A stretch of DNA of 64,000 bases from an uncultured Acidobacteriota bacterium (GCA_963777415.1 CAVZQL010000009.1:122457-186456); one strand, 5' to 3'; shown: positions 40,353 through 51,972, numbered from the stretch's first letter. The notes: generated by a model from the sequence alone, not told the origin. Numbers and translations: made by a program.

Positions 40353-41183
40353 TCACAGCCTCACCCTGAGCGACAGCGGAAAGTGGTCGGACGCGCCGAC
40401 GAAACCATGAACCCACTCATCTGCTGTTCCCAGCGAAGCTTTCGTCAGGATCGAGTCGATTGTCAGGTCGCGATGCCCGAAGCGCGGCCGTGTCGTGGCG
40501 ACCCGCAGATGCTCGAACGGATTGCGGAACTCCATGCTCTTGATGGCCGACGCTGCAGGGTCCTCGGTGAGGTCGAAGTTGAAGTCGCCGGCTACCAGAA
40601 CCGGCACATCACTGTCATACCGCCGAGTGTCATCCCACAATTCGGCCAACTGCGCCTGCCGGCAGTTCTCGTCGCGGCTCTCCAAGTGCACGTTGTAAAC
40701 CACCAGCACTTTGTCCCAAACTTTCAAGTGAGTTACAAGCGCAATACGGCCGCCCAACCTTCTTTGAAATACAGCCAGCCTCGGAATCGCCCAATGCGGC
40801 TTCCAAAACCGTGATTGAGCGCGAAAGCGGAGCACGCGAGAGTGCTCGATCGGCAAAAGCGACAACGTAGCCTGGCCATGATAGGCCGGCGATCCTCTTG
40901 AACCTTGGGCCAACTCTTCGAACTCAATCCCGAACGCGTAATTCGCTCCAAGTTCCGCAGCGAGTTCCGCTGCGACATTGCGGAACCGGGTGCGACGAGC
41001 GTTGCAGTCCGACTCCTGCAGGCATATAACATGGGCGTGGGTTTCAGCCAAAAACGCGGCGATCTCATCAAAGCGCGAGCCGCGCGCTATGTTCCAACTC
41101 ACCACGCGGATCTCGTCGGTGCAGTCGGGCTTGCAACACGCAACAGAGCCAGTCTCGACCAGGTCTAAGGACATAGCCATCAA
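40353..41183 (-). CDS. endonuclease/exonuclease/phosphatase (EEP) family hydrolase
   Basis: VVSWNIARGSRFDEI...HVICLQESD...VAGDFNF...SDHFPLSL motifs of the EEP fold. Confidence 0.8.
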   Translation of the reverse strand: MMAMSLDLVETGSVACCKPDCTDEIRVVSWNIARGSRFDEIAAFLAETHAHVICLQESDCNARRTRFRNVAAELAAELGANYAFGIEFEELAQGSRGSPAYHGQATLSLLPIEHSRVLRFRAQSRFWKPHWAIPRLAVFQRRLGGRIALVTHLKVWDKVLVVYNVHLESRDENCRQAQLAELWDDTRRYDSDVPVLVAGDFNFDLTEDPAASAIKSMEFRNPFEHLRVATTRPRFGHRDLTIDSILTKASLGTADEWVHGFVGASDHFPLSLRVRL

Positions 41184-41226
41184 TCAGTCTTCTGTCTTAC
41201 GATGCGCATCAAAGCGCTCAGTCAAA

Positions 41227-43593
41227 TCAATCCCCGCTGTAAGCAACTTCACACGCAGGCCTGCGACCGGAGAAAGCGAAGGACGAGTACAACGCTATCG
41301 TCCAAACCAGGTTAGCGCCCACCGCCGTCGCCACGAATGCAAACCTCGTGAGATTGAACAGCGCGAAGAACAGTAACGCATAGGGGAAGAAACAGCGGCG
41401 AATGATGAACTCACAGTGTCTTCCCAGGAACAGCAGCGGGTTGAATCCCTGACTCTCTGCCTTCTTTTGCCATACTTTCAGGAAGGCGTCAGGGCGATCC
41501 TGCGACATTCGATGTCGTAAATGACTGACGACCACGAAGCTAAGAGCTGCTCCGACCAAAAGCGCCGCTCCCCATCCCAGATAAGCGTTGCTGCCTGAGC
41601 CCTTGTTCAACCCGACAGCGATCCCAACGAATACCAGCAAGTAGTAGAGATAATCGCAGATCGTGTCCAGCCAGCAACCGAAGTCGGACGACAGGAGTTT
41701 CATGCGCGCGACCTCGCCATCGCAGCCATCGAGGATACTGGCCCAGACCGACAGCAACGCGCCAATGAGCATGTCCCAGTAGCCCCCACGCGAAAAGTAG
41801 AAGCCCGAAGCAATGCTCACGCCCAGGATCAAAAGCGTGACCATGTTCGGAGTAAGAGGCGTCTTGATCAGCTGCCGGCTGATTGGGATCGAGATCCTCC
41901 GATTCATACGGGCATACACGCCATCGGTGGGCTTTACCAGCCAGCTGTCCAATTTACGTTCAGCAGCGCGAACCGTTTCCGGCGAGGATATCTTCTGCCA
42001 TTCCTGCTCCGGTGCTTGCAGCGTCTCGCCAGAGCAGAGTGATCGGATCGCCTCATCAATACTTTCGAAGTTGTCGACCTTGCTCGCGATCCGAAGAGCC
42101 CCTTCTCGCGACATACCGCAGATCCCGACAGCTTCACTGTCTGTTTCATAGACAAAACTCTCGGAGTCCTCGGCTTTCCAATCATTGACCACCTGCAGCA
42201 AACAGGGCTTGAAAGTAGTTGATCCGGAAAGCAGAACGACGCGAGCCGCAGTGCTGGCCGCCTCCCGGATCAGCGACGAAAGGGCTTCGTCCGACGCTCG
42301 CTCATGCCATTCCAGCGCATCAGGAAGACGTCCTGTCCGGAGCAACTCCTTCTTCACGATGCGAGCGATCGATGAAGGCAACGAAACGATCGTGCGCGAC
42401 GGCCGGAGGCTTTGCGCAGACAAAACGTTGCGCAGCACAACGGGAAGTGACCCAACCCGTGCCAGTGCCGGGATGAATGTCCCAGTGTCACAGAAGCTCT
42501 CCACGACGATAATCACAGCGAGCGAGCCATTTTCCCAAAACTGCTCGCCCCCCATCGCTGTATCGGGTTGCGAACTCTCCAGATATCCCTGCATGTTTTG
42601 CTCCTTTCGACGAGACAATCCAATAAGGCACAATGCGCCGATACCGGCCCAGAATAGGGTGCGTGCCCTGCGGCAGAGTGCCAGCGTCAGACCGGCACCA
42701 GGCGTGTAGCCGAGCATCCTCGAAAGCAGCAGATTGCCGCCCTCATAAGTCCCGATGTTTCCTGGATTCACTGCTCCGACGACGTTGATCAACTTGGTGA
42801 ATCCTTCGATCACCAAGGCCGCAACAGGCGTGACGTTAACGCCCATGAATCGCAACACGAGATAAACTTCGCCTAGCGCCAGTATCTGCGAGCTGAGGTT
42901 CAAGACCACGGCTCCCCAGAAAGCCATCGGCGCATGAGAATGGAAACTGAGAAGACTTTCCTCCGCGGATTCGATCACCACGAGCTTGTTTTCCAGCCAA
43001 CGCCTCGCCCATGGCAATCTTTGGAGCGCGCGCGCACTAGCCGAGAGAAGGCGCCACCGCCTCTTGAACGCCATCCCCGTCAGCACGAGCACTGCTGCGA
43101 TGCTGGCCGCGAACACAATGGCGCAAACGCGCCACGCGCCAGTCAGCGAAAGCAGAACTAATGACGCGAGAACTCCTGCGATCCCGATGACGGCGGAGCA
43201 CACCGTGTAAATTCCACGATCAAGCGCAACCGACGAAATGCGATCCGCGATTGGCAGCACCGGTCCCAGCAGCGTTACCCGCAGCGTATCTCCGACGACC
43301 TGGCCCGCTACGCCGAGAACTCCGATGGCCTCCGAGATCAGACGCAGCATGAAGGTGCGCCACAGAGACAAACCCCGCAGGTCGGAACGGAACGTGAGCC
43401 GCCAGGCCCAGGCGCGGATCAGATGTGAGAGGCCTCCCAAGGCGAGGATCACGAGCATGCCCCAGCCTACGGCCCTCACGTGCGCGATCACGTTGCCCAC
43501 ACCCGTGCGGACGATGAAGTAGCCTAAAAGCCCGACTCCCATCAGCACGGCCGCGAGGCGAAGCGGCTTTCGTTTTGTAGAGTCTCTAGACAT
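41227..43593 (-). CDS. fusion protein: flippase-like (LPG_synthase_TM/UPF0104) membrane domain + degenerate nucleotidyltransferase-like middle region + CDP-alcohol phosphatidyltransferase
   Basis: The N-terminal ~330 aa are polytopic with the lysyl-PG-synthase-TM-like pattern. The C-terminus carries the full CDP-alcohol motif DGCDGEVAR-x8-G-x3-D-x3-D (nt 41653-41730). The middle segment LAVIIVVESFCDTGTF...VGSLPVVLRNVL resembles an NTP-transferase fold lacking the GxGxR signature (inference). Confidence 0.8.
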   Translation of the reverse strand: MSRDSTKRKPLRLAAVLMGVGLLGYFIVRTGVGNVIAHVRAVGWGMLVILALGGLSHLIRAWAWRLTFRSDLRGLSLWRTFMLRLISEAIGVLGVAGQVVGDTLRVTLLGPVLPIADRISSVALDRGIYTVCSAVIGIAGVLASLVLLSLTGAWRVCAIVFAASIAAVLVLTGMAFKRRWRLLSASARALQRLPWARRWLENKLVVIESAEESLLSFHSHAPMAFWGAVVLNLSSQILALGEVYLVLRFMGVNVTPVAALVIEGFTKLINVVGAVNPGNIGTYEGGNLLLSRMLGYTPGAGLTLALCRRARTLFWAGIGALCLIGLSRRKEQNMQGYLESSQPDTAMGGEQFWENGSLAVIIVVESFCDTGTFIPALARVGSLPVVLRNVLSAQSLRPSRTIVSLPSSIARIVKKELLRTGRLPDALEWHERASDEALSSLIREAASTAARVVLLSGSTTFKPCLLQVVNDWKAEDSESFVYETDSEAVGICGMSREGALRIASKVDNFESIDEAIRSLCSGETLQAPEQEWQKISSPETVRAAERKLDSWLVKPTDGVYARMNRRISIPISRQLIKTPLTPNMVTLLILGVSIASGFYFSRGGYWDMLIGALLSVWASILDGCDGEVARMKLLSSDFGCWLDTICDYLYYLLVFVGIAVGLNKGSGSNAYLGWGAALLVGAALSFVVVSHLRHRMSQDRPDAFLKVWQKKAESQGFNPLLFLGRHCEFIIRRCFFPYALLFFALFNLTRFAFVATAVGANLVWTIALYSSFAFSGRRPACEVAYSGD

Positions 43594-44353
43594 AAGCGAG
43601 TTCGGGCGTCATTGGGTCATAGCGGTACGGCTCCCCAAAAATACGTTCAGCGTGAGCAAGCGCCTCGGGAGTATCTACGTCCTGCCACAGTCCACTCCCA
43701 ATATCGAACGCCCGCAATTTGCGTTTCTGGGCCAGCAGGCGCATGCCGTCCGAGAGCGAACAGTTGCCGTTCACCATGACCCGCTCGAGCGCTGTAAACA
43801 CCGCCGGAGTACACAAGAACATCCCGGTATCTACCGCGTCATACTGGAGAATCTCTTTTCCGATTCCGGCAATGAACTCGCCGTGGCACAGCACCTTCGT
43901 CGCATCGTCCATATCAAAGATGCGCTCCAACTTCCGATCGACCGCCAGGATCACTGAATCCGGCTCCAAAGGTTGTTCAAGCAGGGCTGTTGCCGTTTCC
44001 GGTTCAAAGATATGGTCGGCCATCAGCAACAAGAAGGGCTCCGCAATCAGGTCTCGTGCGGTTAGAACCGAAACTCCGTTCGCTTTGTCGTATCGGGGAT
44101 TCTCGATCACTTCGATCGTCGTTCCCTCGAACTGGCGGCTTGCCGCCCACGAACGCATCGCGTTAGCCCGGAAGCCGGCGACGATGACGAATCGTTCTAT
44201 CCCTGCGTGACGTGCGCCCAGCACGATGTGTTCGATCAGCGGCTGACCATGCAGTTCGACCAGCGGTTTAGGCATGGCGGACTGCAACAAGGGGACGAGT
44301 CGGCTGCCGTTCCCGGCAGCCAGGATCAATGCGGTCTTGGGTGGCTTTGACAT
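43586..44353 (-). CDS. sugar/alcohol-phosphate nucleotidyltransferase (NTP_transferase family)
   Basis: ALILAAGNGSRL...PKPLVELHGQPLIEHIV...MADHIF...DVDTPEAL. ATG 44353 (MSKPPK) has GAGGAA upstream. Overlaps the downstream fusion gene by 8 nt. Confidence 0.85.
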   Translation of the reverse strand: MSKPPKTALILAAGNGSRLVPLLQSAMPKPLVELHGQPLIEHIVLGARHAGIERFVIVAGFRANAMRSWAASRQFEGTTIEVIENPRYDKANGVSVLTARDLIAEPFLLLMADHIFEPETATALLEQPLEPDSVILAVDRKLERIFDMDDATKVLCHGEFIAGIGKEILQYDAVDTGMFLCTPAVFTALERVMVNGNCSLSDGMRLLAQKRKLRAFDIGSGLWQDVDTPEALAHAERIFGEPYRYDPMTPELAYV

Positions 44354-44370
44354 ATTTCCTCTTCTCATTG

Positions 44371-46878
44371 CTAGAACTCGAACACGAGCTTTCCCCTGTA
44401 CTCACGCCACGCATCGTTGAAGAACTGCCCGAATTGCGGGCTCTGCTGGATGCTCTGCACGTCGCGGGGATTGTAATGACCGAGCAGGTTGAAGATGGTG
44501 AATCCGGCGCGTGCCTTGATGTGCTTGATTTTGATTTCGCGCAGCACCTGCACATCGACCGACGAGAATCGCGGGAATCGCTCCGTATTTCGCGGACCTA
44601 CGTACTGGCGATACGCATCCTGGACGGAGTACGGGAAGCCCGTATGCACGTCCATTACTGGAATCGCCGTGAACTTCTTCGGCAGTTTGAATTCGCCCCA
44701 AACCAGGAATCGGTTCGGCGCGTCGTAAGGAAGCCGACCTCGGCTGTTTGGCTGCACGACTGCCTTGGCGTTGTTCCCGTAGAACTGGAAGAAGTCGTTC
44801 AGATCGCCGTAAGCTCTCGAGCGCACATAGGAAGCGTTAAGCGTGTGCTTGTGGAACTGATAACGGGTGCGGACCTGAAATTCGCGGTACGTCTGCTCGC
44901 CCGAGTTTTCCAGACTCAAAATGCAGGATGCGGCACACACCGGCGACACCACGAAATCATCCTTCGTGCGGCGCCATTCGTAGCCGACTTCGGCTGCCAA
45001 TCCGGGCAGAATCTGGCGACTGAGCGCAGCGTTCCACGATGTGCTGCGAGGGTTTTGTAGTCCGCCTACCACCTCGTTCCGGTAAAAGGTCGAACTTGTC
45101 TCCTGCCCATCGGAACCGAGTACAGAGACGGTGCGCCCCGGCAGGTCGGGGAAGGACGCGACCATCAGGGGCACGCGGTCGTAGAAGATTCCCACTCCGC
45201 CCTTCAGAAGTGTCTTTCCATCCCCGGTCAGAGCAAGGTGAAAACCTGCGCGAGGAGAGGCGTGGGTCGCGTCGGTGATGCTGTCCCTATCGAACCTCAA
45301 CCCGACATCGAAAGAGAGCCGAGACGCAACCGCCCAGTGATCGGAGGCGAACCAGCTCGCTTCATTCTGCCCGAGGGTCGAAGAACTCGGGGCCGTGAAT
45401 GTGATGCGCTCGATCGACTGATTCGAAGTGCCATCGACTTGCACCGGACGGAACGCGTTCTGGCTGTCGTACGACGAGTGCGCGTAGTTGAGTCCAACCT
45501 TCCACTGATGAGTTCCCAGGAAGTGGCGAGGTGATGCCTGGTAGATTTCCTGCCAGTCCACTCGTGACGATTGCCGCGATTGTGTGTTGAAGTATGAACC
45601 TTCAGTCGTCTCCACCGTCATCTGGTACGCGCCGCTGCCGTGGGCTGTCACGTCGGCGTCAAAAGTCTTGTAACTGAACTGCGACGTCAGCAAACTGTCT
45701 TTTCCGATTGCGTACCGGTGCTGAAAGTAGACTTGATACCCGCGCTGGTGGTAGTCAGAAGTGGACGGCTGGGGCGTGAACGTGTTCAGGCCCGAGTACC
45801 GCAATTTTTGCGGATAGATTGAAAACGAAGCGGTCGCCGTCTGCTTTTGCGTAAGGTTTAGATCCAGTTGCGTATAGGAGTTCGTGCTTTCGCTCGTGGT
45901 GTCGCGCTGAGAACCAGGCAGGCTGTTCACCGGTGTTCTTATGTATCGGTATTCGAGTGACTGGGTAAAAGCGATGCGGTCTTTCAGCAGTGGGCCAGTG
46001 ATCGTCATTCGCGGCGTGGCCCCGCCAACGCCTAAAATCGACCCGTCCCGCACGCGTACGCGCGGCATGATGTTCTGAATCGAGAAATGAAGCTTTTCGT
46101 AGTTGCCGGTTTTTGTTTCGATGCTCGACACTGCACCGGTCAACTTCCCGTATTGCGGATCATAAGGATTCGAGATGACCTGGACCGACTCCACCACGTC
46201 GATCGGGAGGTCCATGCCTGGTGAACCCGTGCCAGGATCGGTCACGTTCGCGCTGTTGACCAGCGCTCCGCTCTGCGTATTGCGCGCACCCTTCATGTTG
46301 ATGCGCCCGTCCGGCCCGCGCACAACGCCCGGAACCAGAGGCAGAAGACTTTCAGCGCGATCGTTGGAATTGGGAGCGTCTCGGACCACTTTCTGCGGAA
46401 TCGTCTGAGCGGTTTGATCCGAAGCAGTCTGCTGAACCTGGTCCTCGGTTGCGTTGACGGAGATCGAACTCTTCACGGCCGCAGGCTTCACTTCGAGCGC
46501 GATCTGAGCAACACTGCCGGAATTCACGTCCACGAGTTCGGTCGCCTCGAGCCCCTCGAAGTTGGCCTTGATCGCATAAGTGCCCGCCGGCACGTCGGCG
46601 AAGAGGCACTTGCCTTCTCCATTTGTCTTTGCCGTAAGCTCGCTGGGCCCGCTCAAAGAGATATTGGCCTGGGCGACTACCATCCGTCCCTGGGAGTTGT
46701 TGACGAAAACCGTGCATTCAACACGCCCGGGAGGCGGAGTGGTTTGTGCCTTCATCCACGAAGGCAAAAGCATCGAGAGCACAACGAATGCCCAGGCCAG
46801 GTGCAACGATTTTGTGTGAACAGCAATCACCGAATCCTCCAAAGTATTGGGGCCGACGTTCAGCAAGGGAGTGCGCAA
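44371..46878 (-). CDS. TonB-dependent-receptor-like outer-membrane protein with N-terminal CarboxypepD_reg domain
   Basis: Signal peptide, then the GRVECTVFVNNSQG...GEGKCLFADVPAGTYAIKA beta-sandwich, a plug-like LLPLVPGVVRGPDGRINMKGAR, a long beta-strand-rich body, and C-terminal ...YRGKLVFEF. Confidence 0.85.
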   Translation of the reverse strand: MRTPLLNVGPNTLEDSVIAVHTKSLHLAWAFVVLSMLLPSWMKAQTTPPPGRVECTVFVNNSQGRMVVAQANISLSGPSELTAKTNGEGKCLFADVPAGTYAIKANFEGLEATELVDVNSGSVAQIALEVKPAAVKSSISVNATEDQVQQTASDQTAQTIPQKVVRDAPNSNDRAESLLPLVPGVVRGPDGRINMKGARNTQSGALVNSANVTDPGTGSPGMDLPIDVVESVQVISNPYDPQYGKLTGAVSSIETKTGNYEKLHFSIQNIMPRVRVRDGSILGVGGATPRMTITGPLLKDRIAFTQSLEYRYIRTPVNSLPGSQRDTTSESTNSYTQLDLNLTQKQTATASFSIYPQKLRYSGLNTFTPQPSTSDYHQRGYQVYFQHRYAIGKDSLLTSQFSYKTFDADVTAHGSGAYQMTVETTEGSYFNTQSRQSSRVDWQEIYQASPRHFLGTHQWKVGLNYAHSSYDSQNAFRPVQVDGTSNQSIERITFTAPSSSTLGQNEASWFASDHWAVASRLSFDVGLRFDRDSITDATHASPRAGFHLALTGDGKTLLKGGVGIFYDRVPLMVASFPDLPGRTVSVLGSDGQETSSTFYRNEVVGGLQNPRSTSWNAALSRQILPGLAAEVGYEWRRTKDDFVVSPVCAASCILSLENSGEQTYREFQVRTRYQFHKHTLNASYVRSRAYGDLNDFFQFYGNNAKAVVQPNSRGRLPYDAPNRFLVWGEFKLPKKFTAIPVMDVHTGFPYSVQDAYRQYVGPRNTERFPRFSSVDVQVLREIKIKHIKARAGFTIFNLLGHYNPRDVQSIQQSPQFGQFFNDAWREYRGKLVFEF

Positions 46879-47098
46879 TGTCCTGGTGCAGCCAGAGCCG
46901 CATTGCGCTTGAACTTGTCCCGTGGACGTCGGCCGCGGGTTTGATATTTAACCAAAGGACCGTCGAGTGACTGTCGTGTCTGTCCATCCATAGTTCGCTC
47001 GGGAAATGCAATCCTCGATGTCCTTCAGGCTGTCCCAGCGAATCGCACGCGGTTGCTGGTTCACATCCGAGTGTCGATTCCCAAACACTCTAGGAACT

Positions 47099-47114
47099 TG
47101 CATTCGCCACGCCA
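47099..47114 (-). promoter_or_regulatory. sigma-54-type promoter upstream of the TonB-dependent-like receptor gene
   Basis: The minus strand reads TGGCGTGGCGAATGCA. The perfect palindrome CTGCCC-TAAGTA-GGGCAG is centred 93 bp upstream. Leader ~210 nt. Confidence 0.55.
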
Positions 47115-47196
47115 AAACACTCCGTGTAAGAAGCTGCCTGTTTTCAATGCTCTTGCTGTCGCGACCGCTTTCTTTGCCCGCATCGCGGCAGCAAAG

Positions 47197-47214
47197 CTGC
47201 CCTAAGTAGGGCAG
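47197..47214. promoter_or_regulatory. putative enhancer (UAS) palindrome, or hairpin
   Basis: CTGCCC-TAAGTA-GGGCAG (12/12), extended to GCTGCCCTA-AG-TAGGGCAGC. Lies 93 bp upstream of the GG at 47112-47113 and 207 nt downstream of the paralog-2 stop. Confidence 0.6.
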
Positions 47215-47421
47215 CAGGCAGGCACACTGCCCACATCGCCCGACTCAGCGCAGACGGATGGAATTGATGGACAAGCGGAGGGAGATAAGACTGGTGGGAA
47301 AAGCTCAGCGGGACTGCTACTTTGCGGGACTATGCGGGCTCTGCCGTTTCGACTGAGCGAGTCGTGAGAGAACATCGGTGATCCGATCGACCGTTGCTGA
47401 TCTTCTGATCCTTCGAGTCCA

Positions 47422-48012
47422 TCAGCGGGCGCAGTCGGCCACTGGGCTGACGATCTCATCCACCAACTCCACAAGGTCGCGATTGAGCAACGCGAACGAT
47501 TCCAGGGCTGCGCAATAGGCGGCGTCCAGTGATCTGCGGCTTATGTTCAGCATCGACGCAGCCTCAGAAGCGTCATGGCCCTGCACGCCGCGCAGCACGA
47601 TCGCAAACCGGCAGAGAACATCCATCCTGTGCTTGGCGAAGGCAGAGACTTGCTTCAGCACTTCGCTGACGTGTGGCGCAAGCGGTTCATGGGAATAATG
47701 AAGACAAGGACGTTTCTCGTAAGCATGGGAAAGCGCTGTCAAGCGCCTCTGTTGCATCTCGATCGCAGATCGCACAGTGGCCCTCTTGAGCCAGTCTCCG
47801 AGCCACTCCTGCGCGAGGTACGTCTGCCTCGTTGCGAGCGCGCATGCATCGACGATGCATGCCTCTGCCATCATCCCATCCGCGGTCAAAAAGAAGGCCA
47901 GCCAGTCCAGCTCTGCGCGAGACTGAGTCACCGCTCGCGTGATGTCATCCGTGGTTGCGTAAAAAGCTTCTGACGCTCCCGCTGGCGCGCTTTTCGTGGA
48001 CAAGAAAGCCAT
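47422..48012 (-). CDS. divergent ECF-type sigma-factor-like protein, paralog 2
   Basis: SRAELDWLAFFLTADGMMAEACIVDACALA / WLKRATVRSAIEMQQ / YEKRPCLHYSHEP / MDVLCRFAIVLRGVQGHDASEAASMLNISRRSLDAAYCAALESF. Block-for-block match to 10748-11338 and 57658-58239. Confidence 0.55.
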   Translation of the reverse strand: MAFLSTKSAPAGASEAFYATTDDITRAVTQSRAELDWLAFFLTADGMMAEACIVDACALATRQTYLAQEWLGDWLKRATVRSAIEMQQRRLTALSHAYEKRPCLHYSHEPLAPHVSEVLKQVSAFAKHRMDVLCRFAIVLRGVQGHDASEAASMLNISRRSLDAAYCAALESFALLNRDLVELVDEIVSPVADCAR

Positions 48013-48042
48013 AAAACCTCTTTCGGCGCGAATTGCGATTCG

Positions 48043-49419
48043 CTATTCGAAGCTCCGCGCGCCGCTTCCGAATCCGTTCTTCGCCTGTTTCCAGATCCAC
48101 TTGATCACGCGCGCGTCGTTGTAGCAGTACGCAAGGTTGTGGTTGAGCGTGGAGAAGCAATGCCGCTGGCACGTCTCCTTGATCCCGTTCAACTGCGCGT
48201 AGTCGAACCGGATATCTTCTATGTTTCCCCAGTCGAATGTTGCCGGATACAGGGGGAAGCACGGGGCCAGCGTCCCATCTGTTCGAATCACCACATTGTT
48301 CTGACCCGCACGGCAGTTCCAGTCCGCGAAATGAAGCTCGCCGTCCTCTTCCTGCACGATTCCTGGATTGCAGCGCAGCATCTCTTCCAGTTCGCCGTCT
48401 TTGCCGGTGCCGTCACCGTTCCACCCGACCTCGCGCAGATCCAGACCGGAGGACATGCGCATGAACGTCTTCATTTCCAGCAGCCGCGGCACCGAGTTCA
48501 CCATCTGGTATCCCGCTTTGTTCTTCTCGACGATCCAGTCAACCAGTTCGTCCACCGCCCGCCAATCTTCCGGGCCAATGTAGGTCGGATTATCTTCCAG
48601 GTGCCGGAAGTGGTCGCTCTGATCCAGCATGGGACTTTCATTGATGTGGTAGTCGGTCGCGATGCGGTGCTCGCGCGCCCATTCGGTCAACAGCTTTACG
48701 TCTTCATGGTTATTGCGGCAGATATTGATGTTGAAGAAGGTCAGGTATCCGTGAACGTACTGTTTCCTCAGGGCGTACTCGAGCTTCTTCTGGATCGGAA
48801 CGAACGATTTCGGAAGACTCTCTCTTTCCTCCCATGAATCCACAGCGATATTGAACACGGCTACGCCCGCATCACCCAGCCGATCCGTCAGCTCGGGGCT
48901 CAGCAGACGAGCATTGGTCGCGACATAAACCCACATGCCCTTCTTCGCGGCGTAGTACACGAGCTTATGAATGAACTTGGGACGAAGCAACGGCTCGCCA
49001 CCCATCAGCGCCAGCACACGACCGCCGCGATCATACAGCCAGTCGATCGAGCGGCGCGCGATGTCCTCGCTCATGCCCTTGACCTTGTTATTGAACGAGG
49101 GGCAGTACCAGCAATCCAGATTGCACTTGTACTCGACGAACAGATACGCCGTTATCGGATGAAAATTTCCTGGCAACAACCGCGACCGCAAATAAGGCAC
49201 CAACCATCCGCGCGCACTTCGCGCTAATTGGCCAGCCGTCCACTTGCGCTTTTCCGGCGCCACTTCAGGCCCGGGGTCGCTGCACCTCTCAGGAAAACGT
49301 GGATAGACTGCTTCTGGAAATGACTCGCCACGTTCTTCTGGTGGCAACGGCTGAACGCTTGAGTTCGTCAGCAGGTCGTTCATCGCAACATCGATACGAA
49401 ACTTTGCGGCAGTCACCAT
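48043..49419 (-). CDS. radical SAM protein with C-terminal Cys-rich (SPASM-like) region
   Basis: CNLDCWYC (CxxxCxxC, nt 49102-49125), GGEPLL, and a C-terminal WNCRAGQNNVVIRTDGTLAPCFPLY...CQRHCFSTL. Start moved to ATG 49419 (or 49383) because the upstream 160 codons of the track ORF are R/C/H/W-rich and contain a promoter-like site. Confidence 0.8.
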   Translation of the reverse strand: MVTAAKFRIDVAMNDLLTNSSVQPLPPEERGESFPEAVYPRFPERCSDPGPEVAPEKRKWTAGQLARSARGWLVPYLRSRLLPGNFHPITAYLFVEYKCNLDCWYCPSFNNKVKGMSEDIARRSIDWLYDRGGRVLALMGGEPLLRPKFIHKLVYYAAKKGMWVYVATNARLLSPELTDRLGDAGVAVFNIAVDSWEERESLPKSFVPIQKKLEYALRKQYVHGYLTFFNINICRNNHEDVKLLTEWAREHRIATDYHINESPMLDQSDHFRHLEDNPTYIGPEDWRAVDELVDWIVEKNKAGYQMVNSVPRLLEMKTFMRMSSGLDLREVGWNGDGTGKDGELEEMLRCNPGIVQEEDGELHFADWNCRAGQNNVVIRTDGTLAPCFPLYPATFDWGNIEDIRFDYAQLNGIKETCQRHCFSTLNHNLAYCYNDARVIKWIWKQAKNGFGSGARSFE

Positions 49420-49587
49420 GGGAGTCGATTTTGTCCTTCCTTTCACCGGATTTAGGCTCGTAAACACGGGCCCGAGGATGCGCCTGCTATGGGGTGGAAC
49501 GCACCCTCGGTCGCCTACTTTGCCCGTGCAGACAAGGCCTACTGCCCCGCTCCAAGTTCGGTGCAGTACGCCCCGGCATTTCCAAGA

Positions 49588-49603
49588 AGCACGATGTTTG
49601 CCA
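49588..49603 (-). promoter_or_regulatory. sigma-54-type promoter upstream of radical SAM / ECF-like paralog 2
   Basis: The minus strand reads TGGCAAACATCGTGCT. TTGCCG-ATATTC-AGGCAC is centred 92 bp upstream. Leader ~160 nt. Confidence 0.5.
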
Positions 49604-49605
49604 AA

Positions 49606-49638
49606 GCAGAATGCGTGCAGAATGCGTGCAGAATGCGG
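49606..49638. repeat. 3 x 11-bp tandem repeat
   Basis: GCAGAATGCGT GCAGAATGCGT GCAGAATGCGG, directly adjoining the -24 element at 49598-49603. Confidence 0.8.
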
Positions 49639-49684
49639 AAATTCCGGTGTTTTCATCCAAGCTGCCGGCCCAGCGCCTAGTGCC

Positions 49685-49702
49685 TTGCCGATATTCAGGC
49701 AC
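49685..49702. promoter_or_regulatory. putative enhancer (UAS) palindrome
   Basis: TTGCCG-ATATTC-AGGCAC (8/12, core TGCC-N8-GGCA intact), 92 bp upstream of the GG at 49601-49602. Confidence 0.4.
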
Positions 49703-49946
49703 TTGGACCAGATGTGGTCATCTGCAACGCGAGGGGCCGCCGCCTTGAAAATTAAATCGGGCGCTCGATCATGCAGTTCGAGCGTCCAGGGAGGCGGAAT
49801 GCGCGCTGTTTCAGGAGGCGATGTGGTCACCGCAGCGCGTCCGCATGAGGGAGGTTTTTGTCGAGTCGCTGCGGTATGAACAGCTCTCCTCTTGCCCACT
49901 CGAGTCTGAGATGTTCATCCGCAGTGACATAACGCCGCTCGATTCG

Positions 49947-50531
49947 TTAGAAGTTAAAGACCAGACCGATGGACGGTACGGCCGTGTGCGTTGTCTTGTC
50001 GACGTTGAAAGCGTTGACGTCAAAGTCCGGCGCCTTGTAAACGAAGCCACGGTACTGAACTCGTGCGGCCACGTGCTTCAGGATCGGATAGTCAAGGCCG
50101 CCACCATAAACGAACATGCCGCGGGTCTGGGAACTGAATGCGGAATTGTTGCGTGGGTCAAAGACGATCGCGCCGCCACCGGCGAGCACGTAGGGTTTGA
50201 AGGTCCAACGTACGGGGAGTTTGTAGACGAGGTTCCCAGACACCGCATTAACATTCGTCTGTAGTTGCGAAAACGCTGTGCTCTTGATGTATTTTTGCGA
50301 ATTACTGAAGTAATCGTAAGTCGCTTCAACCGAGAACGACTTGCTCAAGTTGTAGCGATAGCTGGCGACGAGTCCGCCCGACTGCGTCGATTTCTGCGTC
50401 ATGCCGGCGTTCGTCGATTCCTTGCCAAAGAAACCACTACCCTGAATACTGACCTCGTGTTTGCCCTCCTGTGCAAAAACACTCGCGCACAAACAGAACA
50501 GCAGAACCACCGCAATCACTACTCTCTTCAT
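49947..50531 (-). CDS. outer-membrane beta-barrel protein (OmpA-like barrel/porin family)
   Basis: Signal peptide MKRVVIAVVLLFCLCASVFAQ, alternating beta-strand pattern, C-terminal IGLVFNF. GGAGG lies upstream of ATG 50531. Confidence 0.75.
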   Translation of the reverse strand: MKRVVIAVVLLFCLCASVFAQEGKHEVSIQGSGFFGKESTNAGMTQKSTQSGGLVASYRYNLSKSFSVEATYDYFSNSQKYIKSTAFSQLQTNVNAVSGNLVYKLPVRWTFKPYVLAGGGAIVFDPRNNSAFSSQTRGMFVYGGGLDYPILKHVAARVQYRGFVYKAPDFDVNAFNVDKTTHTAVPSIGLVFNF

Positions 50532-50584
50532 TTTGTTCGTCCTCCAAGGGGTCGTTATCTGAAACTCATTACGCCTGGGATTAA

Positions 50585-50600
50585 GGCACGGCGGTTGCCA
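50585..50600 (-). promoter_or_regulatory. sigma-54-type promoter of the OMP barrel gene
   Basis: The minus strand reads TGGCAACCGCCGTGCC. Leader ~43 nt with GGAGG. Confidence 0.45.
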
Positions 50601-50674
50601 ACTTTGGAGGACGTACAAAGCTGAACAAACACAAGTGGTTACGCATAATCACAACAACGAGACTGCCGCTTTGT

Positions 50675-50692
50675 TTGCCCGAATGTCGGCCA
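50675..50692. promoter_or_regulatory. weak enhancer-like palindrome
   Basis: TTGCCC-GAATGT-CGGCCA (8/12), 85 bp upstream of the GG at 50598-50599. Confidence 0.3.
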
Positions 50693-50759
50693 CGTGCCCG
50701 TCTACTGTCATCAAACTGCTCGTGCAGCGCAACACCGTCGCACGGTTTCGCCATGTTCG

Positions 50760-51178
50760 TTAGCGCTCTTTGTTCCGTTCGGTTTTAAGCTGGAACTCAA
50801 TCAGCGTTTGTTGACCTTCCCTGAGGTCCACCGATTTCGTCAGCACGCTGTAGCCTCTGCTGACGGCAGTTGCCGCACACTCGCCGCTGGTCAAGTGGTC
50901 CAACTGAAACACGCCTTCTTCATCTGTGACTGTCGAGCGCGTGTTGGATGATCGATCAAAGCATTCGAGCTCTATCCGCGCGCCCGGCAACTGGATACGT
51001 TCTCCGGAGGACGAGAGGCCGACGACGGTGCCCTGACGCTTGCTGCGGCAGTTTCACAACGAGAGGGGAAACAGTAGAAGAGAAGAATAAGCGCGGTGAT
51101 GCCGATACATCGCCAACCGGGGGCGAAGATGCCATGCAAGACTGCTCGCCATGCCACATCAACTTTAGGCGGCCTCAT
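50760..51178 (-). pseudogene. small CarboxypepD_reg-domain protein split by a 1-nt frameshift (pseudogene, assembly error or recoding)
   Basis: One frame gives MRPPKVDVAWRAVLHGIFAPGWRCIGITALILLFYCFPSRCETAAAS (signal-peptide-like; ATGA overlap with the upstream gene stop at 51175-51178). Another frame continues QGTVVGLSSSGERIQLPGARIELECFDRSSNTRSTVTDEEGVFQLDHLTSGECAATAVSRGYS... The switch lies near 51040-51050. Confidence 0.55.
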
Positions 51179-51972
51179 GGCTGCAACCGCTCCAGCGAAC
51201 TGAGACCAGTTCTCGGCGAACACGCCGCGTTCATCGGAGGCTGAGTGTCATAGATGACATCCCAGTTGAATTGCCCAGCCACTGAATAACTCTCAGCATC
51301 ATCAACATCGGCCCAGGGCAGATCCTGCGTGGACGCACACGAAACTTCCGCGCCTTTATGAATGAGGTGTTCGACTGCCGCGCTGTACAGCTCGCGCTCG
51401 CGCCGTGAAGTCAGCAGCAACTCCATCTCTCGGACTAGTGCAATCATCTCCAACGATCCGCATACCATCGCACCCGCGTACGTCCCCGAGGCTCGTTCCG
51501 GCGGAACGTTCTTAGAAACCTCGAGTACGTGCCCCTCTCGAACCGAGACCTTCACTGCATCTTGGCGATACTTGCCGTCCACGAGCATACAAATCCCAGC
51601 CGAAGATCCCATCGCGGACAAGGGGATTCGCGGGTGGAACAATATATCCGAATCCAGGCAAATGGCCCTGCGGTTCCCGATCCATTCGCTTGCCAACCAG
51701 AGGGAATAGATATTGTCGGTCTGGTCGAAAATGGGGTTGCTGATGAAGGTGATGTCATCCAGCAACTCGAGTTGATGCCGGACCACGTGCTCTACGACTT
51801 CCGCACCCTTGTAGCCGACGACGATCGCAAACTCGCCAATGCCGGCAGCTCTCAATGCCTGCAGTTGATAATCGATGATTGCTTGCCCATTGAATCTCAG
51901 CAGGCATTTGGGGGAGGATGTGACGGCACTGATTCGGGCGCCCGTGCCAGCAGCGAGTATTACGGCTTTCAT
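51175..51972 (-). CDS. NTP_transferase-family nucleotidyltransferase (second copy)
   Basis: MKAVILAAGTGARI...PKCLLRFNGQAIIDYQLQAL...DSDILF...ADVDDAESY. Confidence 0.8.
   Translation of the reverse strand: MKAVILAAGTGARISAVTSSPKCLLRFNGQAIIDYQLQALRAAGIGEFAIVVGYKGAEVVEHVVRHQLELLDDITFISNPIFDQTDNIYSLWLASEWIGNRRAICLDSDILFHPRIPLSAMGSSAGICMLVDGKYRQDAVKVSVREGHVLEVSKNVPPERASGTYAGAMVCGSLEMIALVREMELLLTSRRERELYSAAVEHLIHKGAEVSCASTQDLPWADVDDAESYSVAGQFNWDVIYDTQPPMNAACSPRTGLSSLERLQP

What the first reader, a model, noticed from the sequence alone, without database searches (positions are those of the whole stretch)
40353..51972. Eleven-kilobase minus-strand cluster combining radical SAM, two NTP-transferases, a CDP-alcohol transferase fusion, an EEP hydrolase and three outer-membrane proteins: candidate polar-lipid or head-group pathway
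All on the minus strand, in order:
- NTP-transferase (51972-51175)
- frameshifted CarboxypepD_reg gene
- OMP barrel (50531-49947)
- radical SAM/SPASM-like (49419-48043)
- ECF-like paralog 2
- TonB-dependent-like receptor (46878-44371)
- NTP-transferase (44353-43586; separated from the receptor stop by ~17 nt and overlapping the next gene by 8 nt)
- flippase-like/CDP-alcohol phosphatidyltransferase fusion (43593-41227)
- EEP phosphodiesterase-type hydrolase (41183-40353)

A cytidylyltransferase plus a CDP-alcohol transferase is the chemistry used for CDP-activated alcohol head groups. Examples are the IPCT/DIPPS pair of di-myo-inositol-phosphate synthesis and phosphatidylinositol-phosphate synthases. 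EEP enzymes include inositol-phosphate and sphingomyelin phosphodiesterases. A flippase-like domain suggests the product crosses the membrane.

The radical SAM enzyme could modify the lipid or alcohol moiety. Radical SAM enzymes make membrane-spanning and ether lipids in other phyla, but I cannot assert homology. Four sigma-54/palindrome units punctuate the cluster (52105, 50585, 49588, 47099).

The overall combination is not a pathway I can name.
Basis: inference. Interest (0 to 1): 0.66.

Follow-up and report, generated by a model that had tools for sequence, protein, structure and literature searches.

The report
Conserved acidobacterial CDP-alcohol lipid head-group operon
Only four of the nine listed genes (plus a LolA-like gene) form a unit, an uncharacterised operon found across soil Acidobacteria that most likely attaches a CDP-activated inositol-type phosphate head group to a membrane lipid and sends it outward.

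Summary

Across 80 Acidobacteriota genomes only five genes travel together, usually in this order:
- a CarboxypepD_reg/TonB-receptor-like outer-membrane protein
- a LolA-like periplasmic protein
- an IPCT-like cytidylyltransferase
- an 800-aa fusion protein
- an EEP phosphoesterase

In the window this core is 46878-40353 (minus strand), behind a sigma-54-type promoter. No LolA-like gene lies inside it; a divergent family member sits at 52398-53147 (+).

The radical SAM gene, ECF-like gene, small OMP barrel, frameshifted CarboxypepD_reg gene and second NTP-transferase are not co-conserved with it.

The fusion has three parts: a PF03706 (MprF-flippase-like) domain, a catalytically degenerate IPCT-like domain, and a DIPPS/AF2299-type CDP-alcohol phosphotransferase with an intact signature.

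Best reading (about 0.5): a Kennedy-type pathway making a phospho-inositol ("phosphohexose") membrane lipid, flipped and passed to the outer membrane. That head group is reported in Acidobacteria, including on brGDGTs. No myo-inositol-phosphate synthase gene lies nearby, so the alcohol is unproven, as are the acceptor and the EEP step.

Closest analogues are the unconfirmed Bacteroides "alternative" inositol-lipid cluster, archaeal IPCT/DIPPS, and E. coli ybhP-clsB-ybhN. I rate it a new variant of a known kind.

The parts
47099..47114 (-). Sigma-54-type -24/-12 promoter element (TGGCGTGGCGAATGCA) upstream of the operon
   Evidence: Exact match to TGGC-N8-TGCW. A relaxed form of the motif occurs within 450 nt upstream of the OMP gene in 28 of 71 related loci. 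My rough estimate of the chance expectation is about 2.
44371..46878 (-). First gene of the operon: outer-membrane protein with an N-terminal CarboxypepD_reg domain, a weak Plug hit and a TonB-receptor-like barrel. Probable true start is the GTG at 46830, giving 819 aa with a signal peptide.
   Evidence: Pfam hits: PF25183 E 2e-17, PF00593 E 1e-8, PF13620 E 2e-6, Plug 20.7 bits (below its cut-off of 23.9). Present next to the fusion gene in 73-74 of 80 loci.
43586..44368 (-). IPCT-like nucleotidyl(cytidylyl)transferase with intact LAAGNGSRL and PKPL motifs. Proposed maker of the CDP-activated alcohol.
   Evidence: The best NCBIfam hit is the IPCT half of NF041135 (E 1.8e-37), ahead of the next family at 1.7e-23. 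The three best PDB hits are IPCTs (2xme 1.4e-22, 4mnd, 4jd0); the next hit is at 5.5e-10. 41 of 60 family-invariant residues are identical in A. fulgidus IPCT, against 31% identity overall. Present in 80 of 80 loci.
42652..43557 (-). Fusion protein, N-terminal domain (aa 13-314): PF03706 / MprF-flippase-like ('PplT', HpnL-like) multi-helix membrane domain
   Evidence: PF03706 E 8e-18, 65 bits against a cut-off of 33. TIGR03476 HpnL scores 114 bits, below its cut-off of 196. The AlphaFold model is all-helical here with pLDDT above 90.
41938..42531 (-). Fusion protein, middle cytoplasmic domain (aa 355-552): nucleotidyltransferase fold homologous to the upstream IPCT-like gene, but lacking the GxGxR and Lys signature. 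Probably non-catalytic.
   Evidence: hhalign of the NTP-transferase family against the fusion family gives E 2.7e-5 and probability 74% over 198 columns. Foldseek matches many nucleotidyltransferases and the cytidylyltransferase-like domains of AF2299 and IPCT-DIPPS. The alignment of 58 homologues has no invariant residue in the stretch that aligns to the GxGxR loop of the transferase.
41269..41931 (-). Fusion protein, C-terminal domain (aa 555-775): class I CDP-alcohol phosphotransferase of AF2299/DIPPS type, with an intact D-x2-DG-x2-AR-x8-G-x3-D-x3-D signature and the NRxxSxxxSR juxtamembrane motif
   Evidence: PF01066 E 1e-10. PDB hits: AF2299 2.7e-17, IPCT-DIPPS 2.7e-13. Foldseek: AF2299 target-normalised TM-score 0.76, E 6e-12. 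The signature residues are invariant in 58 homologues.
40353..41183 (-). Last gene of the operon: cytoplasmic EEP-fold Mg-dependent phosphoesterase with a complete catalytic set (WN, QE, GDFN, SDH). Probable start is the ATG at 41180.
   Evidence: PF03372 E 1e-17. The catalytic residues are invariant in 50 homologues. AlphaFold pLDDT is 88. Foldseek gives generic EEP matches only: TDP2, nocturnin, sphingomyelinase. The best NCBIfam hit is the YbhP-type model. Identity to E. coli YbhP is 28%. No signal peptide is visible in the translation. Present in 69-72 of 80 loci.
52398..53147 (+). Secreted LolA-like protein (PF17131, resembling a segment of DUF5686) of the family that normally sits between the OMP and the transferase. 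Here it is displaced and divergent, and may be a paralogue rather than the operon's own copy.
   Evidence: PF17131 scores 35.4 bits against a cut-off of 30; DUF5686 gives E 4e-9. A signal peptide is visible. A family member is embedded in the operon in most loci (67 of 80 within 10 kb; canonical order in 39). It is only 39% identical to the embedded copy of the nearest relative L082, where the other genes are 58-72% identical.
38900..40306 (+). NtrC-type sigma-54 activator (response regulator), convergent with the operon. Candidate regulator, assigned by inference only.
   Evidence: TIGR01818 E 9e-129. Syntenic in L082 together with the PAS kinase and LuxR regulator. A sigma-54 activator lies within 10 kb in 18 of 80 loci.

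Best explanation
**What it is.** The functional unit is a sigma-54-dependent operon at 46878-40353 on the minus strand. It is the local version of a five-gene operon conserved across Terriglobia (Acidobacteriota).

**Proposed mechanism.**
1. The IPCT-like enzyme uses CTP and a phosphorylated polyol, most likely L-myo-inositol-1-phosphate, to make a soluble CDP-alcohol in the cytoplasm. The family assignment is shown by homology; the substrate is inferred.
2. The DIPPS/AF2299-type domain of the fusion protein transfers the alcohol-phosphate from CDP onto a hydroxyl of a membrane lipid. The acceptor could be diacylglycerol, a dialkyl-glycerol, or an iso-diabolic-acid or tetraether core. The product is a phospho-inositol ('phosphohexose') lipid. 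An intact catalytic signature is shown; the acceptor is inferred.
3. The degenerate IPCT-like middle domain serves as a scaffold or docking domain, as in AF2299.
4. The N-terminal PF03706 domain binds or flips the lipid to the outer leaflet. This rests on analogy to MprF.
5. The periplasmic LolA-like protein and the CarboxypepD_reg/TonB-receptor-like barrel carry the lipid to, or insert it into, the outer membrane. This is inferred from co-conservation.
6. The cytoplasmic EEP enzyme either removes a terminal phosphate from a phosphorylated intermediate, as the phosphatases of the DIP and PI pathways do, or remodels the phosphodiester. This step is unresolved.

**What is not part of it.** The radical SAM, ECF-like, OMP-barrel, CarboxypepD_reg-fragment and second NTP-transferase genes are neighbours, not parts of the pathway.
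For: **Co-conservation and operon structure.**
- Counts in 80 loci: transferase 80/80, OMP 73-74, EEP 69-72, LolA-like 67.
- The canonical order occurs in 39 loci, with overlapping or tiny gene gaps.
- The operon is present in the cultured Edaphobacter aggregans DSM 19364 and Tunturiibacter gelidiferens.

**Enzyme assignments.**
- The transferase's best hits are IPCTs, by a margin of 12 or more orders of magnitude in E-value.
- 41 of its 60 family-invariant residues are identical in A. fulgidus IPCT.
- The fusion's C-terminal half matches AF2299 and IPCT-DIPPS by sequence and by fold, with an invariant CDP-alcohol signature.
- The middle domain is a degenerate paralogue of the transferase.

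**Lipid context.**
- PF03706 passes its Pfam threshold.
- In E. coli a PF03706 protein (YbhN) and an EEP protein (YbhP) flank cardiolipin synthase B in one operon, and the window's EEP is 28% identical to YbhP.
- The unconfirmed Bacteroides 'alternative' inositol-lipid cluster combines an NTP-transferase, a CDP-alcohol transferase and a hydrolase. A lysyl-PG-synthase-like protein and a CarboxypepD_reg protein lie nearby (PMC9246714).

**The predicted product exists in these organisms.**
- Phosphohexose is a major intact polar lipid in Acidisarcina (PMC6252331).
- Phosphatidylinositol is reported in Occallatibacter (PMC12935467).
- Phosphohexose is the commonest head group of brGDGT and iso-C15 diether lipids in Solibacter usitatus (bioRxiv 10.1101/2022.04.07.487437).

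**Promoter.** Sigma-54-type elements are found in the window and upstream of the OMP gene in related loci.
Against: - **No inositol-phosphate source nearby.** No myo-inositol-1-phosphate synthase gene is in the 64-kb window or within 10 kb in any of 80 loci. It usually clusters with IPCT/DIPPS and with the Bacteroides clusters.
- **Substrate not established.** The transferase is only about 31% identical to a real IPCT, and all NCBIfam scores are far below the equivalog cut-offs. The alcohol could be glycerol, another polyol or a hexose phosphate.
- **Relatives act on soluble substrates.** The closest characterised relatives, AfDIPPS and Af2299, do not process lipids (PMC4634129).
- **No extra C-terminal helices.** CDP-alcohol transferases with lipid acceptors typically have 3-4 extra C-terminal helices (PMC4634129). 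The fusion has none after its six-helix core. Only the N-terminal PF03706 module could fill that role.
- **The EEP step is unexplained.** A direct CDP-inositol plus lipid reaction needs no hydrolase, so the conserved EEP has no clear role in the simplest version. The structure search could not say whether it is a phosphatase or a phosphodiesterase.
- **Transport is untested.** Nothing tests outward transport by the OMP and LolA-like pair. TonB-type receptors normally import.
- **LolA-like copy in doubt.** The window has no LolA-like gene inside the operon, and its distant family member is divergent.
Confidence: 0.5

Rival explanations
1. A pathway for a soluble phosphodiester solute, of di-myo-inositol-phosphate, glycero-phospho-inositol or diglycerol-phosphate type. 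The transferase makes a CDP-polyol. The DIPPS-like domain joins it to a second polyol phosphate. The EEP enzyme removes the remaining phosphate. This is the chemistry of the closest characterised relatives.
For: - The best characterised homologues, AfIPCT/DIPPS and Af2299, use soluble donors and acceptors (PMC4634129).
- The fusion has the six-helix architecture of soluble-acceptor enzymes, with no extra C-terminal helices.
- Several arginines are invariant in the last helices (R693, R725, R732, R733). By my own analogy to the phosphate-binding arginines of PIP synthases, they could bind a phosphorylated acceptor. No residue-level structural alignment was possible.
- A conserved hydrolase is then needed as the terminal phosphatase, and the EEP supplies a complete catalytic set.
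Against: - It gives no role to the fused PF03706 lipid-flippase-like domain, the LolA-like hydrophobic-ligand carrier or the outer-membrane barrel, all of which are co-conserved.
- To my knowledge, DIP-type solutes are known only from (hyper)thermophiles, whereas these are soil Terriglobia.
- The EEP's nearest named family is YbhP, which sits in a phospholipid operon.
Confidence: 0.17
2. Decoration of another envelope molecule rather than a glycerolipid, followed by export. The CDP-derived polyol-phosphate group would go onto a hopanoid polyol, lipopolysaccharide or lipid A, a capsule or exopolysaccharide, or a lipid-linked intermediate.
For: - The N-terminal domain's best NCBIfam hit is the hopanoid-locus protein HpnL (E 7.7e-33).
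- To my knowledge, the lineages that carry the operon (Acidobacteriaceae, Bryobacterales) are the acidobacterial hopanoid producers.
- PF03706 domains are fused to many kinds of envelope-modifying enzymes (bioRxiv 10.1101/2022.03.11.483950).
- The OMP and periplasmic carrier fit a surface-destined product.
Against: - The HpnL score is below its cut-off (114 against 196 bits).
- No hopanoid, LPS or polysaccharide genes recur next to the operon.
- Phosphohexose glycerolipids, which fit the simpler explanation, are documented.
Confidence: 0.13
3. One reading: one 11-kb pathway in which the radical SAM enzyme, both NTP-transferases, the ECF-like protein and all three outer-membrane proteins cooperate to build and modify a lipid.
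For: - The genes lie on one strand in the window.
- The radical SAM gene also lies within a few kb of the operon in the nearest relative L082 (78% identical). In L053 it sits directly upstream of a LolA-like gene.
- All units carry sigma-54-type promoter elements.
Against: - The radical SAM gene is present near the operon in 1 of 80 genome loci, the ECF-like gene in 5 of 80 and the OMP barrel in 5 of 80.
- Radical SAM homologues at about 70% identity sit alone in unrelated housekeeping contexts.
- Its orientation relative to the operon differs between the window and L082.
- The second NTP-transferase has almost no detectable relatives.
- Each unit has its own promoter element.
Confidence: 0.05
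4. Uptake and salvage. The TonB-type receptor imports an external compound, for example a soil inositol phosphate or a lipid. The compound is trimmed by the EEP enzyme, CDP-activated, and incorporated into the membrane.
For: - The OMP has TonB-receptor barrel and weak Plug similarity.
- The EEP fold includes inositol-polyphosphate phosphatases (established knowledge of the family).
- The absence of an inositol-phosphate synthase from the neighbourhood would be explained by an external supply.
Against: - No inner-membrane importer or kinase is conserved in the operon.
- The EEP has no signal peptide.
- A LolA-like carrier suggests a hydrophobic cargo, not a polyphosphate.
Confidence: 0.08

Closest known systems
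Archaeal/thermophile IPCT-DIPPS (di-myo-inositol-phosphate synthesis; PDB 4MND, 2XME, 4JD0) and AF2299 (PDB 4O6M)
   Same: - An IPCT-like cytidylyltransferase is paired with a class I CDP-alcohol phosphotransferase.
- That transferase carries a cytidylyltransferase-like cytoplasmic domain, the same catalytic signature and the NRxxSxxxSR juxtamembrane motif.
- These are the best sequence and fold matches.
- A separate hydrolase follows, as the DIPP phosphatase does in that pathway.
   Different: - The active cytidylyltransferase is a separate gene here, and the fused copy has lost its GxGxR and Lys motifs.
- An eight-helix PF03706 domain is added at the N-terminus.
- The hydrolase has an EEP fold, not the IMPase type.
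- The operon also carries an outer-membrane barrel and a LolA-like protein.
- The hosts are soil Acidobacteria.
- No inositol-phosphate synthase is linked.
Putative 'alternative' inositol-lipid cluster of Bacteroides vulgatus and Prevotella (Heaver et al. 2022, PMC9246714)
   Same: - The kinds of parts are the same: an NTP-transferase, a CDP-alcohol phosphatidyltransferase and a hydrolase.
- A lysyl-PG-synthase-like (PF03706-type) protein and a CarboxypepD_reg-domain protein lie in the vicinity.
- It is proposed to act through CDP-inositol in a Kennedy-type route.
   Different: - That cluster includes the inositol-phosphate synthase; this one does not.
- Its hydrolase is a HAD, where this one is EEP.
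- Its PF03706 protein is separate, where this one is fused.
- Its function is itself unconfirmed.
- Direct homology of the outer-membrane components to BT_1527 could not be tested here.
E. coli ybhP-clsB-ybhN operon
   Same: It has the same triad: an EEP protein, a phospholipid head-group transferase and a PF03706 membrane protein. The window's EEP is 28% identical to YbhP (E 3e-7), and its best NCBIfam hit is the YbhP-type model.
   Different: - The transferase there is a PLD-type cardiolipin synthase, not a CDP-alcohol enzyme.
- It has no cytidylyltransferase, OMP or LolA-like gene.
- The roles of YbhP and YbhN are themselves unknown.
MprF (aminoacyl-phosphatidylglycerol synthase with flippase domain)
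   Same: One polypeptide joins a PF03706 membrane domain to the enzyme that makes the lipid head group. This suggests that synthesis and flipping are coupled (bioRxiv 10.1101/2022.03.11.483950).
   Different: The catalytic domain and the chemistry are unrelated. Here the PF03706 domain is N-terminal to a membrane-embedded transferase.

Membership tests
IPCT (CTP:L-myo-inositol-1-phosphate cytidylyltransferase) | Nucleotidyltransferase fold with the G-x-G-[ST]-R-L loop and the catalytic Lys (PKPL) | tested here: met
   LAAGNGSRL and PKPL are present and invariant in 21 orthologues.
IPCT (CTP:L-myo-inositol-1-phosphate cytidylyltransferase) | Closer to characterised IPCTs than to other sugar or polyol nucleotidyltransferases | tested here: met
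   The top three PDB hits are IPCTs (1.4e-22 to 7e-19); the next hit is at 5.5e-10. The NCBIfam IPCT half scores 1.8e-37 against 1.7e-23 for the next family. 41 of 60 family-invariant residues are shared with 2XME.
IPCT (CTP:L-myo-inositol-1-phosphate cytidylyltransferase) | Reaches the curated equivalog score | tested here: not met
   129 bits against a cut-off of 580 for NF041135. That model covers the bifunctional protein, so the comparison is only partly fair.
IPCT (CTP:L-myo-inositol-1-phosphate cytidylyltransferase) | A source of inositol-1-phosphate (MIPS) in the same locus or genome | tested here: not met
   No MIPS domain was found among the window's ORFs. No recurrent MIPS-like family was found within 10 kb in 80 loci. 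Genome-wide presence could not be tested.
IPCT (CTP:L-myo-inositol-1-phosphate cytidylyltransferase) | Enzyme activity with CTP and inositol-1-phosphate | not testable with these tools
   Needs a biochemical assay.
Class I CDP-alcohol phosphotransferase, AF2299/DIPPS subgroup | Signature D-x2-D-G-x2-A-R-x8-G-x3-D-x3-D on TM2-TM3 | tested here: met
   DGCDGEVARMKLLSSDFGCWLDTICD is present. D622, G623, D625, G626, A629, R630, G639 and D647 are invariant in 58 homologues; the third Asp is Asp or Glu.
Class I CDP-alcohol phosphotransferase, AF2299/DIPPS subgroup | Six-helix core preceded by a juxtamembrane helix and a cytidylyltransferase-like cytoplasmic domain | tested here: met
   AlphaFold model with pLDDT 86.9. 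Foldseek gives AF2299 a target-normalised TM-score of 0.76 over 433 columns and aligns IPCT-DIPPS over 460 columns. hhalign links the middle domain to the transferase family.
Class I CDP-alcohol phosphotransferase, AF2299/DIPPS subgroup | DIPPS equivalog score, and use of CDP-inositol plus inositol-1-phosphate | tested here: not met
   69.6 bits against a cut-off of 580. Substrates are not testable with these tools.
PF03706 / PplT (MprF flippase-like) and HpnL | Pfam gathering score for PF03706 | tested here: met
   65.3 bits against 33.4, covering residues 13-314.
PF03706 / PplT (MprF flippase-like) and HpnL | HpnL subfamily score and a hopanoid-locus context | tested here: not met
   114 bits against a cut-off of 195.65. 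No hopanoid genes recur in 80 loci.
Bacteroides-type alternative inositol-lipid cluster (Heaver 2022) | MIPS + NTP-transferase + CDP-alcohol transferase + HAD hydrolase, with PF03706 and CarboxypepD_reg proteins nearby | tested here: inconclusive
   The NTP-transferase, CDP-alcohol transferase, PF03706 domain (fused) and CarboxypepD_reg-domain OMP are present. MIPS is absent and the hydrolase is EEP, not HAD. Sequence homology to the Bacteroides proteins could not be tested.
TonB-dependent receptor | Plug domain plus a 22-strand barrel above the Pfam thresholds | tested here: inconclusive
   The barrel models pass (PF25183 63 bits against 30; PF00593 36 against 27). Plug is below threshold (20.7 against 23.9). 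The only PDB sequence hit is the colicin I receptor at E 0.008.
Lipid-tail radical SAM enzymes (Tes/GDGT-MAS, MSS), considered for 48043-49419 | Sequence similarity to GDGT-MAS/Tes or MSS, and linkage to lipid genes | tested here: not met
   There is no GDGT-MAS hit in the PDB at E below 0.01; only generic radical SAM cores match. No NCBIfam equivalog was reached. It is not co-conserved with the operon.

The most novel reading that the evidence does not exclude
This operon is the missing head-group machinery for the 'phosphohexose' intact polar lipids of Acidobacteria, including the phosphohexose-brGDGTs used as palaeoclimate biomarkers.
- The 'hexose' would in fact be inositol, installed by a Kennedy-type CDP-inositol route rather than the usual bacterial route through CDP-diacylglycerol and PIP.
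- The fused flippase-like domain would let the cell cap or translocate membrane-spanning lipids.
- A dedicated LolA-like carrier and barrel would deliver them to the outer membrane.
Probability: 0.2. Interest if true: 0.8.

Novelty: new variant of a known kind. Interest (0 to 1): 0.58.

Why it matters
- **Ecological weight.** Terriglobia are among the most abundant soil bacteria. Their unusual lipids (iso-diabolic acid lipids and brGDGTs) underpin widely used palaeotemperature and pH proxies.
- **An apparent gap.** In the literature I could search, no genes are assigned to the phosphohexose head groups of these lipids. The membrane-spanning lipid pathway in Acidobacteria is described as unresolved.
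- **A testable candidate.** This is a tightly conserved, compact operon, and it is present in cultured strains such as Edaphobacter aggregans.
- **What it would show if confirmed.**
  - A CDP-inositol (Kennedy-type) route to bacterial inositol lipids, so far only hypothesised for Bacteroides.
  - A second case, after MprF, of a PF03706 flippase-like domain fused to the enzyme that makes its cargo.
  - A possible lipid-specific route to the outer membrane.

Tried and rejected
- **Search for an inositol-phosphate synthase.**
  - Pfam scans of most large ORFs of the window found none.
  - Clustering all ORFs of 80 loci found no recurrent family beyond the five core genes and various regulators.
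- **EEP subfamily.**
  - The PDB sequence search found nothing.
  - The AlphaFold model was good.
  - Foldseek returned TDP2, nocturnin, sphingomyelinase and ExoIII at similar scores. Phosphatase and phosphodiesterase therefore could not be told apart.
- **Link from the LolA-like protein to Bacteroides DUF5686/BT_1527.**
  - An exhaustive HMMER search returned only stand-alone proteins of about 250 aa among the best 150.
  - The OMP shows no DUF5686 hit even at E 5.
  - The resemblance rests only on sub-threshold Pfam hits of the LolA-like genes.
- **Radical SAM identity.**
  - There is no equivalog and no GDGT-MAS match.
  - Contexts of homologues are unrelated.
  - The look-up of its paralogue on the same contig failed.
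- **Second NTP-transferase.** The metagenome scan gave one weak relative.
- **Source names.** The cluster-member look-up for organism names returned none.
- **DIPPS structure paper.** It is not held in the library, so residue-level comparison of the acceptor pocket was not possible.
- **YbhN comparison.** Pairwise BLAST of the PF03706 domain against E. coli YbhN showed no significant similarity. The relationship is at Pfam level only.

Full report
**1. What is in the sequence**

| Gene | Coordinates | Evidence |
|---|---|---|
| EEP hydrolase | 40353-41183 | PF03372, E 1e-17 |
| Fusion protein (788 aa) | 41227-43593 | PF03706 at residues 13-314; PF01066 at residues 581-696 |
| NTP-transferase ("NTP1") | 43586-44368 | Overlaps the fusion start by 8 nt |
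| TonB-receptor-like OMP | 44371-46878 | CarboxypepD_reg, a weak Plug hit and a barrel |
| ECF-like protein | 47422-48012 | Only weak region-4 similarity |
| Radical SAM | 48043-49419 | CNLDCWYC motif; weak SPASM hit |
| OMP barrel | 49947-50531 | PF13505 |
| Small CarboxypepD_reg gene | 50760-51162 | Split over two reading frames |
| Second NTP-transferase ("NTP2") | 51175-51972 | |

- The OMP most likely starts at the in-frame GTG at 46830, behind a GGAGGA. That gives 819 aa with a signal peptide.
- Sigma-54-type -24/-12 elements (TGGC-N8-TGCW) lie at 47099, 49588 and 52105, with a near match at about 50585.
- The window has 16 such elements against 5.4 expected, and 0 of 100 shuffles reached 16.
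- The anatomy is therefore confirmed. Whether it is one system is a separate question.

**2. The real unit**

The fusion protein has more than 490 full-length homologues of about 800 aa. The nearest is 66% identical.

A scan of one genome per species returned 165 relatives. The 80 best are nearly all labelled Acidobacteriota: Acidobacteriaceae, Acidoferrales, Bryobacterales and Solibacteraceae. A few metagenome bins carry other labels. Two cultured strains are included, Tunturiibacter gelidiferens M8UP28 and Edaphobacter aggregans DSM 19364.

I searched these loci (10 kb each side) with every protein of the region, and separately clustered all their ORFs. Both approaches give the same answer. 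Five genes travel together:

- NTP1, 80/80
- the OMP, 73-74/80
- the EEP, 69-72/80
- a LolA-like protein of about 250 aa, 67/80
- the fusion itself

The canonical order is OMP, LolA-like, NTP1, fusion, EEP. It occurs in 39 loci, with overlapping or very short gaps. The remaining loci show rearranged or partial versions of this set.

The other genes of the finding are not co-conserved:

- radical SAM, 1/80
- ECF-like, 5/80
- OMP barrel, 5/80
- NTP2 gave only cross-hits onto NTP1.

The remaining recurrent neighbours are regulators: sigma-54 activators, Reg_prop/Y_Y_Y kinases, LuxR regulators, an ECF sigma factor and a universal stress protein.

A relaxed sigma-54 motif lies within 450 nt upstream of the OMP gene in 28 of 71 loci. 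By my own rough estimate, about 2 would be expected by chance.

In the window the operon has no LolA-like gene inside it; the OMP stop is 2-17 nt from the NTP1 start. This variant is seen in about a dozen other loci. A LolA-like family member lies at 52398-53147 on the plus strand. It is only 39% identical to the embedded copy of the nearest relative, where the other four genes are 58-72% identical. It may therefore be a paralogue.

**3. The radical SAM gene and other neighbours**

- The radical SAM protein belongs to a very large and very conserved family: 2970 hits, with the best 120 being 67-87% identical and about 460 aa long.
- Homologues at about 70% identity sit alone between unrelated housekeeping genes. 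Two examples are an RNase J-like gene next to trpD, and an RND pump next to secA.
- The gene lies near the operon in the closest relative L082, but in the opposite orientation. It also lies near the operon in L053.
- That makes two independent adjacencies out of 83 loci, which is too few to claim a functional link.
- It matches no NCBIfam equivalog. In the PDB it matches only generic radical SAM cores, not GDGT-MAS.
- NTP2 has intact catalytic motifs but almost no detectable relatives.

**4. What the core enzymes are**

*NTP1.*
- Its best NCBIfam hit is the cytidylyltransferase half of the bifunctional IPCT/DIPPS model (E 1.8e-37). The next family is at 1.7e-23.
- Its three best PDB hits are the three solved IPCTs: 2XME at 1.4e-22, then 4MND and 4JD0. 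The next hit is at 5.5e-10.
- Of the 60 residues invariant in 21 acidobacterial orthologues, 41 are identical in A. fulgidus IPCT. Overall identity is 31%.

*The fusion's C-terminal half.*
- It matches AF2299 (2.7e-17) and IPCT-DIPPS (2.7e-13).
- It carries the complete CDP-alcohol signature, invariant across 58 homologues.

*The fusion as a whole.*
- An AlphaFold model (pLDDT 86.9) matches AF2299 with a target-normalised TM-score of 0.76. It aligns to IPCT-DIPPS over 430-460 columns.
- Its middle domain matches dozens of nucleotidyltransferases.
- Profile-profile comparison aligns the NTP1 family to fusion residues 355-552 (E 2.7e-5). In that alignment the GxGxR loop and the catalytic Lys are replaced by unconserved residues, while the C-terminal W-x-[DI]-x-TP-x-D motif is kept.
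- The fusion is therefore PF03706, then a dead IPCT domain, then a DIPPS-type transferase. It looks like a descendant of a bifunctional IPCT/DIPPS whose cytidylyltransferase job has passed to the stand-alone paralogue just upstream.

*The EEP protein.*
- It has the full catalytic set, invariant in 50 homologues, and no signal peptide.
- Its model is confident (pLDDT 88), but fold matches are generic.
- Its best named family is the E. coli YbhP type.

**5. Mechanism**

The shown facts are an IPCT-type enzyme, an AF2299/DIPPS-type transferase, a lipid-flippase-like domain, a cytoplasmic phosphoesterase, a periplasmic LolA-like protein and an outer-membrane barrel. All are co-inherited and probably co-transcribed from a sigma-54 promoter.

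The most economical reading is a Kennedy-type head-group pathway, followed by outward lipid traffic:
1. CTP plus a polyol phosphate gives a CDP-alcohol.
2. The alcohol-phosphate is transferred to a membrane-lipid hydroxyl.
3. The PF03706 domain flips the product.
4. The LolA-like protein and the barrel hand it to the outer membrane.

Three lines of outside evidence favour a lipid product with an inositol-type head group.

- **Heaver et al. (PMC9246714).**
  - It has an NTP-transferase, a CDP-alcohol transferase and a hydrolase.
  - A lysyl-PG-synthase-like protein and a CarboxypepD_reg protein lie nearby.
  - These are the same kinds of parts as here.
- **E. coli ybhP-clsB-ybhN.** A PF03706 protein and an EEP protein are encoded with a phospholipid synthase.
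- **Lipid chemistry of these organisms.**
  - Acidobacteriaceae contain major "phosphohexose" lipids (PMC6252331).
  - They also contain some phosphatidylinositol (PMC12935467).
  - Phosphohexose is the commonest head group of brGDGT and diether lipids in Solibacter usitatus.
  - To my knowledge, inositol and hexose have the same mass, so the MS-based "phosphohexose" label does not tell them apart.

**6. Weak points**

- No inositol-phosphate synthase is linked in any locus.
- NTP1 is far below any equivalog threshold.
- The nearest characterised relatives act on soluble substrates.
- According to Clarke et al. (PMC4634129), lipid-acceptor members of the family have extra C-terminal helices. 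The fusion lacks these. The N-terminal PF03706 module might substitute for them.
- A direct CDP-inositol plus lipid reaction needs no hydrolase. Yet a hydrolase is conserved here (EEP) and in Bacteroides (HAD).
- This points either to a phosphorylated acceptor or intermediate, as in DIP and PI synthesis, or to a remodelling step.
- I therefore hold the lipid head-group explanation at about 0.5.

**7. Novelty and verdict**

- I found no paper describing this operon or this fusion. The PplT preprint lists other PF03706 fusions but not this one.
- Searches linking brGDGT head groups to genes returned nothing.
- The chemistry class is known. The new features are the architecture, the non-homologous hydrolase, the outer-membrane components and the phylum-wide conservation in Terriglobia. 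I rate it a new variant of a known kind.
The head-group core is right. The extent of the cluster and the radical SAM link are not.

Noticed in passing
window 48043-49419 (-): This radical SAM protein of about 460 aa belongs to a very large family (2970 hits). The best 120 are 67-87% identical, far more conserved than the neighbouring operon. A paralogue lies on the same 222-kb contig. It reaches no NCBIfam equivalog and has no specific PDB relative. The literature says the acidobacterial membrane-spanning-lipid synthase is still unknown, with no MSS homologues and Tes in only 3 of 14 genomes (PMC13159169). This family may deserve a look, but nothing here links it to lipids.
   Followed up: partly
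window 47422-48012 (-), 57598-58239 (+), 10748-11338 (-): There are three paralogous proteins of about 196-213 aa, 40-48% identical to each other. They have only a faint sigma-70 region-4 or SigE-family resemblance. L082 has two more copies flanking its radical SAM gene. Their function is unknown.
   Followed up: partly
window, whole: Sigma-54-type -24/-12 elements are about three times enriched (16 against 5.4 expected). Many lie in intergenic regions upstream of genes, for example 5850, 11365, 11727, 25466, 30971, 31163, 53863, 56999 and 60918. The window also encodes two sigma-54 activators, at 8592-10655 and 38900-40306.
   Followed up: partly
window 50760-51162 (-): A small secreted CarboxypepD_reg-domain gene is split between two frames. 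The signal-peptide part is in one frame and the domain in another, near 51000. This is an apparent single-base frameshift or a sequencing error.
   Followed up: partly
window 51175-51972 (-): A second IPCT-like nucleotidyltransferase with intact GxGxR and Lys motifs and its own sigma-54-type promoter at 52105-52120. A metagenome scan found only one weak (38%) relative. It appears to be an orphan, and its partner transferase, if any, is unknown.
   Followed up: partly
window 31912-40306 (+), compared with L082 13399-21612: A block made up of a giant PAS/Reg_prop histidine kinase (1954 aa), a LuxR-type regulator, a single-domain receiver and an NtrC-type activator is syntenic with the nearest relative. 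There too it lies next to the operon, although the operon is inverted relative to it. It may be the operon's regulatory module.
   Followed up: partly
window 53181-53210: A perfect 13-bp GC-rich hairpin with T-runs on both strands lies directly after the LolA-like gene. It looks like a bidirectional intrinsic terminator.
   Followed up: no
window 648-1538 (+) and 1583-5329 (+): Two adjacent ORFs of 296 aa and 1248 aa have no Pfam match at E 1e-4.
   Followed up: no
window 25979-29308 (+): A complete Mla-type phospholipid transport set (MlaE, ATPase, MlaD, auxiliary lipoprotein) lies about 11 kb from the operon. It is unrelated by conservation, but it is another lipid-traffic system in the window.
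   Followed up: no
L081 (E. coli K-12 NC_000913.3, 821542-824497): The ybhP-clsB-ybhN operon shows the same triad of an EEP protein, a phospholipid synthase and a PF03706 protein as the acidobacterial operon. This suggests a recurrent functional module whose EEP role is unexplained in both.
   Followed up: partly
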